A stretch of 64,000 bases of DNA, taken from NCBI RefSeq assembly GCF_003704095.1, contig NW_020843601.1:124001-188000 (forward strand), read 5' to 3'. This document shows, in pieces, positions 46,901 to 58,900 of this stretch. The position numbers are program-made. Each line of letters opens with the position of its first letter. Position 1 is the stretch's first letter. Origin of the DNA: Pocillopora damicornis (Eukaryota).

Positions 46901-49900
46901 TGTGTGTGTGTGTTCCGCTCATCGAAAACGTATCATATGGTGTAATGCCATAAGGACATGAAAATAAAAATGAAGTGTGTGCGAAATGGAAACTAGAAAG
47001 CTACACTTTCAATACAGAAAAACTACTACGTGTCAATGCTAAATAACCTAGGAAGGAGTCTGTTTTGTTTTGTTGAACTTCACTGCAAATGGAAAGTCAA
47101 AACGAAGAAAATGATTACATGAAATGAAACAGTGATCGAAACATTGTAATACGATGTTTGTTTATTTTTTTTTTGTTTTAACAACGAATAAAACGCTTTC
47201 AAAATTGGAGTAAGATCCAAGAAAAAACAAGGCGACGATTCACTCAAAACTAAAAATATGAATAAATATGGTAGGTTTAGGTTTAAGTAGTAAAATCCAA
47301 ATTTGTTCAAGCAATCACAAAAAAAGATGCACACCTGTGAATTCATGCGAAAGTATTTTTTTTCTTTCTTCAATCTGGACTACCTCACTACCACTCATCA
47401 CTCAGAATTTGAGAAAAGACTCGATAAAAAGCAAACCTCAGTTTCCTCAAATAAACAAGGAAAAAAATAAGCGAAGTTCAAAATCAAAATTGAGAGCTTC
47501 ATTAATGGTAACAAAACCGAAAGGCCTTCTTTGTACTGTAGATAAACTAGTAAAGTTAGTGTTATAAATATTTAGAACACGAGAAAAAAAACTGCAAAAT
47601 AAGTCTTCAAAACCCTGCAAACGATCTCCAGTTGCAAACAACTTTTCAGTTGGTTCTTAAAGCTCTCAGGCTACTAAAGCGATTGGTCACGATTAAGCTG
47701 TTGTTTCGTCTGCAAAAAAGCGACCTAGGCTGCTTGGAACGACATAATTAAAGTTACTAACTAAAAACTAAAAATCTACTGTTTTCAACTCGAATGAAAT
47801 GCGTGTTTTATATATGTTGACATTTTCTCTCAGCAAAGGTAAGTCCTCAGATTGTTCCTGTTCTTTAGTAAAACTTCCTTGTTACGGAGTAACGGCCAGA
47901 GTACTTACGTCCGGTAGGGTACGATGTACGGCTATAGCCCGACCCTCCTGTGACAGAGGTACGCCCTGTGGTAGTGCGGTAAGTGGTGCCGCTGGTTCTG
48001 TACACGGATGGTTGACTGGAGTACGAAGAACGGTATACGGTCGATTTGGCAGACCCGGCACTTCCAACCTCAGCAGAATCTCCGTCGGCGACATTTGTGA
48101 TCAGAATCGTCTTTGAGGTTGCGGCGACATCCTCACTGTTGTTAAAGTTTCCTTCAGCCCTTGCCAGGTCACTGTCAAGCGGAGCTGATGAGACGACAGC
48201 ACTCTTGCGAATAACTTCGCTGCGTTCTCCCTCTACGGCGGATTTCATTGGCGTAGAGGTGGCACTGAATTCTAGACCATTAGTATCTGTGGACGTCTTC
48301 TTTACCGTGTAAGTTGACGTTGAACTGCTGAAAGTCGGGGAGTCGGCTGTTGAAGTAGTTCTGTAGCGACGCACCTCGTAGGTCGTCACTGGCTTGTACT
48401 CTGACTTCAAAACTTCCTTCAGTCGGAGCTCTGCTTTTTCATAGGCTTCATCGGCGACAAATACGTCTTTTTTTAAGTTTTCGATCTTCTTCTGCAAGCT
48501 TGCAATCTTCAGGCGCATATCACTGATAGCAGCATTCTTCTCTTCCACGGTCTTCTCGTAATACTCATTGGAAGACTTCAACTCCCTGTTGTCCTTCTCA
48601 AGCTTGTAGATGTATTCTTGCTTGTCGGCCATTCCACTGTTGATCTTGATCACCATCTCCTCTTCCAGTTTGCTCTTTGCAAGCACCAATATGTCATACT
48701 CTTCTTGAAGCTTTGAATATTTTGCTTTCAAGTTAAACAGCTCTTGTTCAACCTTCGGATTTTGAGCTGGGGTATCCTTTGCGATGCGCAGCTCACGTTT
48801 GAGCGACTCAATTTCAGAGCGCATGGAGATTGCCTCAGAACGCAATAGCCCCAATGCAGCCTCTTTCTCCTTAATCTCGTCTCGGTACACTCGTACTTGA
48901 TTGTCGATATGGATTGCCACTTCTCGCTCGTTCTTTGACCTGAGCTCAATAATCTGCTGGCGAAGACTGTCTCTCTCTTGGCAAGCAGCGTCGAATGAAT
49001 GTTGCAGAGACACAAACTCGGCGCTACTACGAAGGACGGAGGGGCTAATTACCATCGATTCCTTCCTCACACGTTCCACTTCCATCTCGCTTCGCTGCTT
49101 CGTGGTGGCTAGCTCCCTCTTTAATCCTTCAATTTCTGCTCTCAGTGTCATAGTCTCTGAACGGAAGTTGTTCATGGCTACCTCCTTCTCTTTAATTTCC
49201 TCACGGTAGATCTTCACTTGACTTTCAATGTTTTGTTCTCCCTTTATCTTTATATCAATTACTTGTCCTCTAAGGCCATCACGCTCTTTACAAACTTCTT
49301 CGTATGTTCGTTGCAAAGAGATGTACTCTGCGCTACCGCGGATGTCGGGAAACCTCAGTGTGTTTACTTCTTTCTTCAAACGATCTATTTCAATCAGATA
49401 GGCTTCTTGATTTCCAAGATCTCTCTTCAAACTTTCAATTTCGCTCTTGAATGAGTAGCTCTCTACACGTATTTTCTCCATTGCTACTTCTTTCTCTCTT
49501 ATCTCTTCTCGGTAGATCTTTACTTGGTTGTCAATTTCCTGTTCTCCCTTCATCTTAATATCAATCACTTGTCCTCTAAGTGCATCACGCTCTCTGCAAA
49601 CTTCCTCGTACGTCTTCTGCAGGGATATATACTCTGCACTGCCACGGATATCTGGGAATCGCAAGATATTGACCTCCTTCTTCAGGCGCTCGATCTCAGC
49701 CAAGTACGCTTCTTGGTTACCGAGATCTCTCTTTAGTCCATCAATTTCGGCCTTGAATGAATAGCTTTCAACGCGTATTTTTTCCATCGCGATTTCTTTC
49801 TCCCTGATCTCCTCACGATATATCTTCACTTGGTTGTCGAGGTCTTGCTCTCCTTTCAACCTTATGTCGATAACCTGACTTCTTAGTCCATCACGCTCTT

Positions 49901-55900: not shown

Positions 55901-58900
55901 GAAAGGCTGAACAAATCCGAGCAACATATCAAAGATTGCTAATTTGTACAAAAATCATGGTTCTTTAACAAAGGTACACTGTTTAAATATCAGCAAAGTT
56001 TTTTCCATTATCGGAAGAATCAGCAACGAGAAACTATTCCTCAAATAGAGCGGAATACTATTGCGTAAAAATGGCAGATGAAATTGTTCGTAGTAAGCAA
56101 ACTCAACCACACCCACTGAAGAAACTTGGTTCTTGGCATTTTGAGAACAAGATTAATAAGTCTAATTTCCACGCCAAAAGACGATCATTCTGTCTTGAGA
56201 GACAATTAAAAATTGCTCCATATCTGAGCTGCTGAGTTTCGAAACAAAATGGACATTTAATAAGCAATTCTTATCCTGAGAGTCAACATTCCCTAACATT
56301 ATTTGCCCTTCGCCACCCGTGCAGCATTTGACCCCGATTTCTGTGCAAAAGATAATGCCGTACTTCTTTACACATGACAGAAAATCAAGATTTTGGGTAA
56401 TCTAAGCTCTTATGCCGCAGCAAGAGATTAAATCTACGGAAATATTTTGAAATCGGACGTGGAACATTTCTAACCTCATTTTTCTGATTTATCACAATCC
56501 CCTTGAAGTCCTGTTGAAACTTCTCGAGGACGATCTCAAAATTGATTCCTGTAACTTCTTGAAGACTGGTCATTTTAGCGACGCGATCAGCTCAAAGCAG
56601 ATAAGAGCAGCAAGAAGCAAAGACTGGGCAAAGCGTTCAGACAGAGAAAATAGTCCCCTAACCGTGAAGGTAGCAGGACTAAAATAGTATTAAAGGGACG
56701 CGAACTTTAAAAGATCACTGAGTTCTATTTGGAACAATCACTCTCTAGCACTATTGGCTGACTAATCCGTGGAATAACAAAGTTTATTCCCACTGGTATG
56801 TTCCCTAGAGTCTTATTATATACTAGGAAAGACTGCTTGAGCAAGTCTCTTCCCACGGTGGCGCAGCACAAAAGTGAAGTTGCCCAGAAAACGGTCAAAC
56901 GAAATAAAGGGTGATCTCTTTGAGCAGCCTGCAATGTTTACTGCAGTAACGTACGCCCTTGTTTTGCGGTTGAGGTTTCGCGTCCTTTGTCACGCGGGCG
57001 CTTACAAAGCACAATGAGCATTTTTTCCATAAAAATGCGGTTTTCTGGCTAAAGTACAGTCTATTGTGAAGAATACAAAAGAAAGAATGATTGTGATTTT
57101 GACCTGGGAATTTAAATGATCTTGTTTTTACTCCAGTTTTTTAGCTGAAATAATCAGGACTTAGAAGAGCAGGCAGAATTTTGGACGCGTAACAAAGATA
57201 ATGATTATTTGCGTTTCATTTTGACTGCGTTTTGTGCAAGCAGCGAGTGATTACACCATGTTGATTGTGGTACAGCAAGAGACCAATTATACACGTAATT
57301 TCAAACATTTCTTTTGATATTGTAATGTACTCTAAAGGTGTAAGTATATGAAAAGCTGAATTTGAACTTTGAATGCACTTTATTAAAAGCAAAGCACTAT
57401 AATTGAAGGTTTTTTTCTTCAAAATTTAGCGCGAAAAGGTAATGCAGCTATAACCGCGGTCGTCGTGATTTTAGGAGAAATGCATAAACTTTATTTGATT
57501 CGTGCTGCGTTTAATTTCGTGTGTTAAGACATTTACACCATTTCTGACGTAAACGCTGATGAACAGTTGTTGTTTAATAAAGTTTAATTAATGAGATATT
57601 GTGCTGCACAGATCCGTGATTCTCTCTACCATGATACAAATAAATTTCCAATCGGTAACTTACGTGACCCTGAGCTGGGAAACCTCGAACTTGTCAATCT
57701 TTGTTTGTAAATTTTACACGCAAGTTTCCCAATAAGTGAAAGCTTAATTTCAGAACTAGTCAAAAATTGAATAAGTATCGGAAAACTCAGTAACTGCGGC
57801 CCATACGGATGAAGTTAGATAACAATACAAATTAACAATATTCATGAAGTTTCTGAGGCAATCAAAGTGAACATTCTATTTTCTTGATGTGAGCCGATTT
57901 CAAACCAATTTTTCCTCAAATGATTACACAAACAACGGTCAGCTGGTTTTTTCATTATATAAGGATAGGCTTAATGCTGACCTCTTTAATCACAACTATT
58001 ACAATTTCCTCAAATGAAATTGGTGCATTAGCTGCATTATTTTTCACTACTCATTATATACAGTTGTAATCGGACAGTGTATTCGGACGGTTGGCTGTAA
58101 TCAGACACCTGTAATCGGACAGTTGAAGCAGCCAATCATACTAAGTCCACTCAGTAAAACCTAATCACAGAATTGATCGCAAAAACCATAGCAACAACCA
58201 CTTGGGGAATTTCCAAAATGGAGGAATTTTGTATTTTAGACATCTTCTCTACCAGAGATGTTTGACCTAAATGTTTTTGTTTTTCTTTACGGAAATTGAA
58301 ACGGTTATGATTAATTGGTAACAGGACTTCATGTCATTCAATTCTGTCTGTTATGAGACTCATGTTTGACAAATGGGACTCCCGCTTCGCGGTCGTCCGA
58401 TTTTGTTTATCACTCGTATGATAACAGACCGAATTGGACTCCACTCGGTCCTATTACCAGTATTAACTCTGTCATTACTATTCTGTTAGATTTCAAGTTA
58501 CTCCACCGATGGGAAAAAAAGGGAAAAAAAAAGGAGACAGTGTTTAATGAGTCAGTAATGAAATCTGTTTAAACAGCCCAGTGATAGAACCAGTTTGACG
58601 GGTTTTTAAATTATGCAACACAAATCCACGTTTGTGAGTGTTAAAACAAATTATTATAAACCCACTCTTCTTCAAACGAGGAATACGACTTTCTCCTCAC
58701 TTGTTTTTGAAGTTATCCGTTTTTGCAGCGTCATTACTGGAAGAGTTTAAAAACACGCCTTTAAAAAACAAAGAGAATGGTAATGATTGTACAAAATAAT
58801 TTTTTTTTCAATAAATATTTCCAAATCGCGCGGTTCGTTCGACCGGTTTGCCATGAAAACATTTTTTTTTCCTTTGGTTGAACAAAAAATCCGTTTATTA

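What the first reader, a model, noticed from the sequence alone, without database searches (positions are those of the whole stretch)
47865..56573. Giant coiled-coil protein encoded almost wholly by one 6.16-kb exon
Seen: about 1900 aa of near-continuous E/K/R-rich helical sequence with no recognisable globular domain, signal peptide or TM segment. It is built from 15 units sharing (E/D)(Y/F)xS(L/I)xxx(Y/F)(D/E)xxxxERDxLRxQ...YRxEIREKExxI(D/E)RLRSE. I do not recognise it as myosin, lamin, rootletin or a golgin. Inference: a lineage-specific filament or scaffold protein (for example ciliary rootlet, cnidocyte or muscle cytoskeleton) whose length is set by repeat number.
Basis: partly seen in the sequence, partly recalled or inferred. 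Interest (0 to 1): 0.7.

Follow-up and report, generated by a model that had tools for sequence, protein, structure and literature searches.

The report
Giant repeat-built coiled-coil protein of corals
This is a real two-exon stony-coral gene for a protein of about 240 kDa made almost wholly of long helical rod segments in 15 repeated units, belonging to an unnamed coral protein family of unknown cellular role.

Summary
On the minus strand a 33-codon first exon (56573-56475) and one 6,162-nt exon (54026-47865) encode about 2,086 aa.

Fifteen units are present. AlphaFold2 gives each canonical 102-aa unit as one helix of about 91 residues, ended by a conserved proline/glycine hinge. The last ~115 rod residues form one confident helix, and the final ~175 aa are predicted disordered. 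No transmembrane stretch and no specific domain were found.

Twenty-one close relatives (58-100% identity) exist. The only names are "hypothetical protein" (Desmophyllum pertusum) and an automatic "CEP290-like" (Orbicella faveolata) that Pfam does not support.

Unit number runs from 12 to 18 and varies in the central array. A 98.8%-identical sequence carries exactly two more units. Units are under strong purifying selection, dN/dS 0.03-0.08. Two further paralogue lineages share the C-terminal helix.

The filament or scaffold role, the oligomer state and transcription remain untested. I rate it a new member of a known kind, of moderate interest.

The parts
56475..56573 (-). Exon 1: ATG plus 32 codons, ending GAG followed by a gt donor
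   Evidence: tblastn of Desmophyllum model P0005 residues 1-33: 63.6% identity, E 9e-10. Sequence read; donor checked.
54027..56474 (-). Intron (2,448 nt), phase 0; contains a 19-nt x2 tandem repeat at 54658-54695
   Evidence: Lies between the donor and the acceptor ttccaag|GAATAT. Tandem repeat.
47865..54026 (-). Exon 2: 6,162 nt, 2,053 codons plus TAA stop; product 240.3 kDa, pI 5.4
   Evidence: Colinear with 21 homologues.
53319..54026 (-). N-terminal non-repeat helical region (P0001 residues 18-253)
   Evidence: Mean local 3.5-residue hydrophobic power 0.52 against 0.20 in shuffles. Conserved in homologues.
50859..53318 (-). Units 1-8: older, diverged units of 84-138 aa, position-orthologous across corals
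   Evidence: Alignment A1. In the unit tree they group by position across six proteins.
49329..50858 (-). Units 9-13: central array of exact 102-aa units, each ending in the RFPDIRGSA hinge; this is the part whose copy number varies
   Evidence: AlphaFold2 helices 2-92, 102-193 and 204-296 for units 9-11. dN/dS 0.03-0.08. Lineage-specific clusters. The two-unit gap against P0002 falls here.
48714..49328 (-). Units 14-15: terminal units, position-orthologous across corals
48405..48755 (-). C-terminal conserved helix (P0001 residues about 1775-1891), shared with two other paralogue lineages
   Evidence: AlphaFold2 single helix, residues 2-117 of the fragment; ten-residue block means of pLDDT 92-98 over residues 1-110, falling to 79 at 111-120. 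57% identity to P0023 over this region. 33-40% identity to P0024, P0025, P0070 and P0059, E 1e-24 to 1e-27. Alignment A3 has 28 invariant columns.
47868..48404 (-). C-terminal tail of about 175 aa: S 20%, T 16%, net charge +8; predicted disordered, with conserved short motifs and a conserved ...TRKFY end
   Evidence: Composition. pLDDT below 50 except a 7-residue helix. Conserved columns in A4.

Best explanation
The locus is a functional two-exon gene of a stony coral (Scleractinia). It encodes an intracellular protein of about 2,086 aa and about 240 kDa, made of a segmented alpha-helical rod plus a disordered basic tail.

Shown:
- The rod comprises a ~235-aa N-terminal helical region, 15 related units, and a ~115-aa C-terminal helix.
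- Each canonical 102-aa unit is predicted as one ~91-residue helix. It has three heptad-phased blocks with phase shifts at two glycine sites, and it ends in a conserved proline/glycine hinge.
- The units are under strong purifying selection.
- Copy number changes in the central array, within and between corals.
- The C-terminal helix and a serine/threonine/tyrosine/arginine-rich tail are shared with a second paralogue, and the helix with a third.

Inferred:
- Two chains pair in parallel and in register into a jointed rod. The maximum length is about 250-280 nm, using the recalled rise of about 0.15 nm per residue.
- The rod acts as a structural scaffold or filament subunit, and its length is tuned by unit number.
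- The shared C-terminal helix and tail act as the assembly or anchoring module.
- Many surface residues in every unit are conserved, so each unit probably makes a specific repeated contact rather than being an inert spacer.

The cell type and partner structure are unknown.
For: Real gene.
- A 2,070-codon open frame.
- 21 homologues at 58-100% identity.
- dN/dS 0.03-0.08 in the three unit pairs where dS could be computed. dS was saturated in the other 7 of 10 pairs, which still keep 72-86% protein identity.
- Exon 1 and the splice pattern match an independent gene model.

Helical rod.
- AlphaFold2 on units 9-11 gives helices 2-92, 102-193 and 204-296, with breaks only at the hinges.
- The C-terminal fragment gives a helix at 2-117, with ten-residue block means of pLDDT 92-98 over residues 1-110.

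Heptad signal.
- 27% of 28-residue windows exceed the 95th percentile of shuffles at period 3.5. The mean is 0.48-0.52 in the rod, against 0.20 in shuffles and 0.18 in the tail.
- Hydrophobic columns fall at 3-4 spacing in three blocks.
- The first block of 14 of 15 units matches the leucine-zipper model HALZ, best E 8.9e-11.

Surface conservation. Across 96 units from six proteins, 18 of 66 non-core columns are at least 75% identical. Nine of the 18 are at e/g positions. Polar R16 (a position) and K48 (d position) are also conserved.

Length by copy number..

Shared C-terminal module..

No transmembrane segment, no signal peptide and no globular domain.
Against: - The unit model has low confidence: mean pLDDT 62.8, pTM 0.22, alignment of 11 rows all from this one protein.
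- Oligomer state and chain orientation were not established by any search.
- A scan for long-range charge complementarity at axial staggers found nothing above shuffles. The best long stagger scored 0.076, against a maximum of 0.088 in 100 shuffles. So there is no myosin-like signature of staggered lateral assembly.
- No transcript, protein or localisation evidence was available. The database relatives are ORF calls from contigs. P0002 begins with M where the window has a TTG leucine codon.
- The window's 15 units against 17 in the near-identical P0002 could be an assembly collapse. The missing 204 aa is exactly two units, so both gap ends fall at the same point of two neighbouring units.
Confidence: 0.55

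Rival explanations
1. It is a long flexible tether or spacer, golgin-like or centrosomal-linker-like in mode of action. It is anchored by one end and does not polymerise, and the hinges give it reach and collapse.
For: Regular proline/glycine hinges about every 91 helical residues. A distinct conserved C-terminal module that could be the anchor. No long-range charge-stagger signal for lateral assembly.
Against: No membrane anchor and no known targeting domain; no golgin or GRIP-type family appears among the 7 Pfam hits. Strong conservation of many surface positions in every unit is more than a spacer needs.
Confidence: 0.22
2. It is a periodic ruler or side-binder. Each unit binds one repeat of a periodic partner such as a cytoskeletal polymer, in the way tropomyosin or nebulin does, so that unit number measures length along the partner.
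For: Exact 102-aa period in the central array. Surface positions conserved across units and species. dN/dS 0.03-0.08. Basic tail with net charge +8.
Against: No partner is known and no binding domain is recognised. Units 1-8 vary from 84 to 138 aa, which fits a strict ruler poorly. Unit number differs between corals, 12-18.
Confidence: 0.1
3. It is a distant member of the nematode 'major antigen' (OVT1 / LFI-1) family. That protein is a 234-kDa myosin-like protein reported in muscle of Onchocerca.
For: The Pfam OVT1 helical-domain model scores 41.2 bits (cut-off 30.9) on the window protein and 97.5 bits on the Orbicella relative, where one stretch covers profile positions 6-100 of 100. The four other long coiled-coil proteins scanned did not hit it at E<=0.01. 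The size, and the lack of signal peptide and transmembrane segment, are alike (passages of PMC7875354).
Against: Single units reach only 16.8 bits in the one unit tabulated; 10 of 15 units match at E<=1, best E 0.0069. The same units match 95 different Pfam families at E<=1. Other repeat coiled-coil proteins also sum to above-cut-off scores for plainly unrelated families, for example Sec2p at 98 bits and Filament at 58 bits on P0109. No OVT1 sequence was available for a direct comparison.
Confidence: 0.1
4. It is not a functional protein-coding gene: a chance ORF, a pseudogene or a repeat artefact of assembly.
For: No transcript evidence was obtainable here. Repeat arrays are prone to mis-assembly.
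Against: 2,070 open codons. 21 conserved homologues on separate contigs. dN/dS 0.03-0.08 between units. An NCBI gene model in Desmophyllum and a RefSeq model in Orbicella.
Confidence: 0.02

Closest known systems
Unnamed stony-coral family: Desmophyllum pertusum OS493_024197 'hypothetical protein' (P0005) and Orbicella faveolata XP_020614739.1 'centrosomal protein of 290 kDa-like' (P0129)
   Same: Colinear over the whole length, including exon 1, the units, the C-terminal helix and the tail ending ...TRKFY. Identity is 74% for P0005 and 69% for P0129.
   Different: Unit number differs: 18 in P0005 and 33 in the 3,860-aa Orbicella model, against 15 here. The Orbicella model may join tandem paralogues. 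ORFs like P0008 and like P0017 lie on contigs of the same length in four cases (inference). The 'CEP290-like' name has no support in Pfam.
Paralogue lineages P0023/P0119 (about 1,470 aa) and P0024/P0025/P0070/P0059 (about 2,600 aa); unnamed records
   Same: They share the C-terminal helix: 57% identity for P0023, and 33-40% for the second group at E 1e-24 to 1e-27. P0023 also shares the S/T/Y/R-rich tail, ending ...TRKYY.
   Different: P0023 has its own repeat of about 105 aa and no Pfam hit. The ~2,600-aa group has only 3-4 matches to the unit, and it ends in a different short tail.
Intermediate-filament proteins
   Same: Mode of construction: a helical rod with breaks, flanked by a S/T/Y/R-rich non-helical end. 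The best, non-significant PDB profile hits are GFAP and vimentin rod fragments, E 0.0065-0.5.
   Different: The Pfam Filament model does not hit at E<=1. The rod is about six times longer and is built of 15 repeats. No lamin-type tail domain is found.
Nematode major antigen OVT1 / LFI-1
   Same: A coiled-coil protein of about 234-240 kDa without signal peptide or transmembrane segment. The Pfam OVT1 model scores above its cut-off at whole-protein level.
   Different: Per-unit matches are weak and no better than to many unrelated coiled-coil models. Membership is not established.
Plant HD-Zip leucine zipper (Pfam HALZ)
   Same: The first ~30 residues of 14 of 15 units match this dimeric leucine-zipper model, best E 8.9e-11 and 90 bits for the whole protein. 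This is a hint for parallel pairing.
   Different: There is no homeodomain, it is an animal protein, and the motif is repeated 15 times. I read this as convergence of zipper sequence, not kinship.

Membership tests
Unnamed coral giant coiled-coil family (P0002-P0022, P0129) | Colinear architecture: N-terminal region, 12 or more units of about 102 aa, C-terminal helix, tail ending ...TRKFY | tested here: met
   21 hits at E=0 with 58-100% identity. Units counted with a profile. Tail and C-terminal helix aligned.
Intermediate filaments (Pfam Filament PF00038) | Match to the conserved ~310-residue rod model | tested here: not met
   Not among the 7 families at E<=1 for the whole protein. PDB profile hits to GFAP and vimentin reach only E 0.0065-0.5.
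Myosin II tail / paramyosin | Match to the myosin tail model, and a long-range charge periodicity that allows staggered packing | tested here: not met
   No myosin tail family among the Pfam hits. The best long-range charge stagger scored 0.076 against a shuffle maximum of 0.088. The PDB hit to a myosin-7 rod fragment is at E 0.054-0.59.
Rootletin (Pfam PF15035) | Match to the rootletin domain | tested here: not met
   Absent for the whole protein at E<=1. Only 2 of 15 single units match at E<=1, best E 0.0037.
Golgins | C-terminal membrane anchor or GRIP/GRAB-type targeting domain | tested here: not met
   The highest 19-residue hydropathy mean is 0.70. No such Pfam family was hit. The tail is predicted disordered.
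CEP290 (name carried by the Orbicella relative) | Match to a CEP290-specific model | tested here: not met
   No family with CEP290 in its name among the 7 hits for P0001 or the 10 hits for P0129 at E<=1. That Pfam holds a CEP290 coiled-coil model is recalled, not checked. The many-exon structure of animal CEP290 genes is also recalled; this gene has two coding exons.
Major antigen OVT1 (Pfam PF24423) | Specific match of the ~100-residue helical domain above the gathering score | tested here: inconclusive
   Whole-protein scores are 41.2 and 97.5 bits against a cut-off of 30.9. Single units reach only 16.8 bits in the one unit tabulated; 10 of 15 match at E<=1, best E 0.0069. Summed scores above cut-off also occur for unrelated models on repeat coiled coils.
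Spectrin repeat | Unit of about 106 aa folding as a three-helix bundle; match to the spectrin model | tested here: not met
   No spectrin family in Pfam at E<=1. AlphaFold2 gives one continuous helix per unit, at low confidence, pLDDT 62.8.
HD-Zip leucine zipper (Pfam HALZ PF02183) | A zipper directly after a homeodomain in a plant transcription factor | tested here: not met
   The zipper model matches at 90 bits, in 14 of 15 units, but no homeodomain is found.

The most novel reading that the evidence does not exclude
The three paralogue lineages that share the C-terminal helix form a previously undescribed cytoskeletal system of corals, and perhaps of other anthozoans. They would make jointed rods that co-assemble through the common C-terminal module into fibres. 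The spacing or reach of these fibres would be set by the number of ~15-nm units, and that number is being re-tuned in different coral lineages. A candidate structure would be one of the fibrous structures seen in coral cells by electron microscopy whose proteins are unknown, for example the anchoring fibres of the cells that tie tissue to skeleton. That suggestion is my speculation and rests on no call.
Probability: 0.12. Interest if true: 0.65.

Novelty: new member of a known kind. Interest (0 to 1): 0.35.

Why it matters
Long coiled-coil proteins are common and many are lineage-specific, so the kind is not new. This one stands out in four ways:
- It is conserved across many stony corals and is under strong constraint in every unit.
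- It has a precise hinge-and-rod module whose copy number changes within and between corals.
- It sits in a three-lineage family that has no characterised member.
- Public annotation calls it "hypothetical" or, misleadingly, "CEP290-like".

If it proves to be the subunit of a coral-specific fibre, it would give a molecular handle on a structural element of reef-building animals. It would also be a natural example of length tuning by repeat number.

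Tried and rejected
- **Self-pairing test.** Two copies of units 9-11 in complex prediction gave no verdict: score 0.03 against a mark of 0.32, and the controls were not run. It counts neither for nor against pairing.
- **Protein atlas look-alikes.** Whole protein and C-terminal 296 aa. The best clusters are unnamed (0.89-0.91). Named ones (FILIP1L, CCDC30-like, BicD, CENP-F fragments) score 0.87-0.88 with low shared-feature counts. I treat them as chance.
- **Solved structures.**
  - Unit profile: 28 rows at E<=1, best 0.0065.
  - C-terminal profile: 3 rows, best 0.054.
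  - Whole protein: 0 rows at E<=0.001.
- **Three-helix-bundle reading of the unit.** The glycines at unit positions 30 and 74 suggested it. I dropped it after AlphaFold2 gave one helix per unit, though that model is of low confidence.
- **Charge-stagger scan.** No long-range signal. Only the i to i+3/4/5 attraction typical of helices appeared.
- **Names for relatives.** Three cluster look-ups gave names for only 5 of 30 clusters. One was in the family (Orbicella). Four were outlying hits: Legionella, Verrucomicrobia, Mycena and a MetaClust entry whose only label is a status line.
- **Outlying hits of the representative search.** Most of the 53 hits look like generic coiled coils. P0063 matches 25 Pfam families at E<=0.001, the table's display limit, including a 376-position family of unknown function, DUF5723.
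- **Transcript evidence.** The short C-terminal fragments on small contigs (P0031 and others, P0125-P0127) all start inside or after the repeats, and none carries exon 1. They show neither splicing nor transcription.
- **Literature.** Searches for the two accession tags found 0 papers. Three topic searches gave nothing that can be tied to this gene. In the Stylophora cell atlas (PMC8162421; passages only) 'coiled-coil' occurs only in the reference list.
- **Not done.**
  - The joined exon 1 + exon 2 protein was neither built nor searched; each exon was handled on its own.
  - The genome-contig collection holds only bacteria and archaea and was not scanned.
  - Supplementary tables of the coral atlases were closed, so marker-gene lists could not be checked.
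  - Fold search was not run, because single long helices of low confidence give meaningless matches.

Full report
**What is there**

The window is AT-rich (GC 0.34-0.42) and eukaryotic in gene structure. Between 48 and 54 kb, GC rises to 0.43-0.46 with strong strand skews.

The minus strand holds a stop-to-stop frame of 2,070 codons at 47865-54077. The six other ORFs of 100 aa or more in 46-58 kb are 101-126 aa. The translation is rich in E, R, K and L.

The Desmophyllum pertusum gene model OS493_024197 (P0005) places a first coding exon at 56573-56475: 33 aa, 63.6% identity, E 9e-10. Its next residues align from 54026. The DNA shows ATG at 56573, GAG|gttaga at the donor, ttccaag|GAATAT at the acceptor and TAA at 47867-47865.

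I handled the two exons separately. I did not build or search the joined protein.

**The repeats**

Their alignment (A1) has 44% mean column identity, one invariant glutamate, and eight columns at least 90% conserved. Units 1-8 are 84-138 aa. Units 9-13 and 15 are 102 aa and unit 14 is 103. Tandem Repeats Finder sees period 306 nt, 6.1 copies and 78% matches. Six units end in the identical nine residues RFPDIRGSA.

**Fold**

AlphaFold2 on units 9-11 used 11 overlapping three-unit stretches of this protein as the alignment. It gives three helices (2-92, 102-193, 204-296) broken only at the hinges. Confidence is low: mean pLDDT 62.8, pTM 0.22.

The C-terminal 296 aa were aligned with seven homologue fragments. 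They give one helix over residues 2-117, with ten-residue block means of pLDDT 92-98 over residues 1-110. The following tail is below pLDDT 50 apart from a 7-residue helix at a conserved motif.

Hydrophobic periodicity at 3.5 residues is well above shuffles in the rod. 27% of windows exceed the 95th percentile, and the mean is 0.48-0.52 against 0.20. It is absent in the tail, at 0.18.

In the unit, conserved hydrophobic columns follow 3-4 spacing in three blocks: about positions 2-26, 34-73 and 79-93. Phase shifts fall near the two glycine sites.

Each unit therefore looks like 13 heptads with two discontinuities, followed by a hinge. A three-helix-bundle (spectrin-like) reading is not supported. 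There is no transmembrane or signal-like stretch.

**Is it a known protein?**

Pfam reports seven families at E<=1 for the whole protein. Three are above their cut-offs: HALZ at 90 bits, DAHL at 68.9 and OVT1 at 41.2. None is a filament, myosin-tail, rootletin, spectrin, golgin or CEP290 model.

When each unit is scanned alone, 95 different families match at E<=1. HALZ matches in 14 of 15 units (best E 8.9e-11). OVT1 matches in 10 of 15 (best E 0.0069). Rootletin matches in 2 of 15.

I therefore read the OVT1 and DAHL scores as inconclusive. I read the HALZ match as a leucine-zipper-like first block without kinship.

No solved structure matches the whole protein at E<=0.001. The unit profile's best PDB row is a GFAP rod fragment at E 0.0065. 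The atlas searches gave nothing usable.

**Relatives**

The word-indexed search found 28 proteins at E<=0.001 among 8,000 scored candidates. Twenty-one have E=0, 58-100% identity and 1,589-2,393 aa. Two of the 28 carry names, both "hypothetical protein" of Desmophyllum pertusum.

A cluster look-up added Orbicella faveolata XP_020614739.1, "centrosomal protein of 290 kDa-like", 3,860 aa. It has 33 units but only one C-terminal module, and it has no CEP290-type Pfam hit. It may join tandem paralogues, since ORFs like P0008 and like P0017 sit on contigs of equal length in four cases (inference).

I searched 1.84 billion representative proteins with the unit profile. That gave 53 hits at E<=0.001, 7 at E<=1e-10 and 2 at E<=1e-30. 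The family itself is one cluster (P0011).

The next hits look like real but distant repeat relatives of unknown organism:
- P0056, E 8.5e-47; a member of its cluster, P0109, has 15 unit matches of at least 60 profile positions.
- P0057, E 2e-29.

The rest look like generic coiled coils, including bacterial and fungal proteins.

**A small family**

The ~115-aa C-terminal helix is shared with two further lineages:
- P0023/P0119 (about 1,470 aa): 57% identity in this region, its own repeat of about 105 aa, no Pfam hit, a similar tail, ending ...TRKYY.
- P0024, P0025, P0070 and P0059 (about 2,600 aa): 33-40% identity, E 1e-24 to 1e-27.

Alignment A3 has 28 invariant columns. A profile search with A3 among longer proteins found only these three groups: 20 proteins at E<=0.01 among 8,000 candidates.

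**Evolution of the array**

A profile count gives 12-18 units in the window protein and its 21 close relatives. Some of those relatives are truncated ORFs.

I built a tree of 96 units from six proteins. Units 1-8 and the last two group by position across species. The central units group by lineage in P0005, P0011 and P0022, and they interleave among the close trio P0001, P0002 and P0004.

The window differs from P0002 by 24 of 2,051 aligned residues and by one 204-aa gap, exactly two central units. P0002 represents a cluster of 532 sequences. An identical 15-unit form, P0003, also exists. This is either a copy-number allele or an assembly collapse.

Between central units of the window, dN/dS is 0.03-0.08 in the three pairs where dS is measurable. 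dS is saturated in the other seven pairs, which still keep 72-86% protein identity.

Across the 96 units, 18 of 66 non-core columns are at least 75% identical. Nine of the 18 are at e/g positions. A polar arginine at an a position and a lysine at a d position are also conserved.

**How it probably works**

Shown: a conserved, constrained gene for a jointed helical rod with a disordered basic tail, whose length changes by whole units.

Inferred:
- Parallel in-register pairing, from the heptad pattern, the e/g charges and the zipper-like first block.
- An extended length of up to about 250-280 nm, using the recalled rise per residue.
- A structural role in which each unit makes a repeated specific contact.
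- A C-terminal helix and tail that mediate assembly or anchoring.

Points that weaken the inferred part:
- A charge-stagger scan gave no sign of myosin-like staggered packing.
- The self-pairing job gave no verdict and is not used as evidence.
- Transcription, cell type and partners are untested.
- The database fragments on small contigs do not show splicing.

**Literature**

Searches for the two accession tags found nothing. Three topic searches found nothing that can be tied to the gene.

I read passages only of the Stylophora cell atlas (PMC8162421). Its marker tables are supplements and were closed.

For OVT1 I read passages of PMC7875354. They describe a 234-kDa protein, reported in muscle of Onchocerca, with LFI-1 as its C. 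elegans orthologue.

**Verdict**

I rate it a new member of a known kind (long repeat-built coiled-coil rod proteins) in an unnamed coral family. Interest is moderate.

Noticed in passing
window 42130-43206 (-) and 60444-61484 (-): Two single-exon rhodopsin-type receptor ORFs flank the gene (Pfam 7tm_1, E 8.4e-43 and 1.1e-39). The first runs into the N run at 43210-43514, which I left as it is.
   Followed up: partly
window 37163-38596 (+) and 39178-39579 (+): A major-facilitator transporter gene. The large ORF matches MFS_1_like at E 5.2e-55, and a downstream ORF gives a weak MFS_1 match at E 7.7e-05, probably a further exon.
   Followed up: partly
window 34988-35419 (+); 35502-36152 (+): An ORF with a PAN/apple domain (E 2.4e-08). 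Beside it is a 217-aa ORF with no Pfam match.
   Followed up: partly
window 8305-8832 (-) and 15374-15823 (-): Two ORFs of 176 and 150 aa look alike by eye, sharing runs around a conserved tryptophan and a cysteine pair. They have no Pfam hit. They may be exons of paralogous genes.
   Followed up: no
window 54658-54695: A perfect 19-nt x2 tandem repeat inside the intron of the gene.
   Followed up: no
P0129 (Orbicella faveolata XP_020614739.1); P0008/P0017 clusters: The RefSeq model has 3,860 aa and 33 units but a single C-terminal module. ORFs like P0008 and like P0017 lie on contigs of equal length in four cases (1127933, 993519, 288605, 328199). This suggests tandem paralogues in some corals that the model may have merged.
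   Followed up: partly
P0002 against window 49329-49940: A 98.8%-identical sequence representing a 532-member cluster carries two extra central units between the window's units 12 and 13. This is either a copy-number allele or an assembly collapse.
   Followed up: partly
P0023 (unnamed record): This paralogue has its own well-kept repeat of about 105 aa, about ten copies by the repeated BLAST matches spaced 105 residues apart. It has no Pfam hit at all. This points to an independent repeat expansion on the same C-terminal module.
   Followed up: partly
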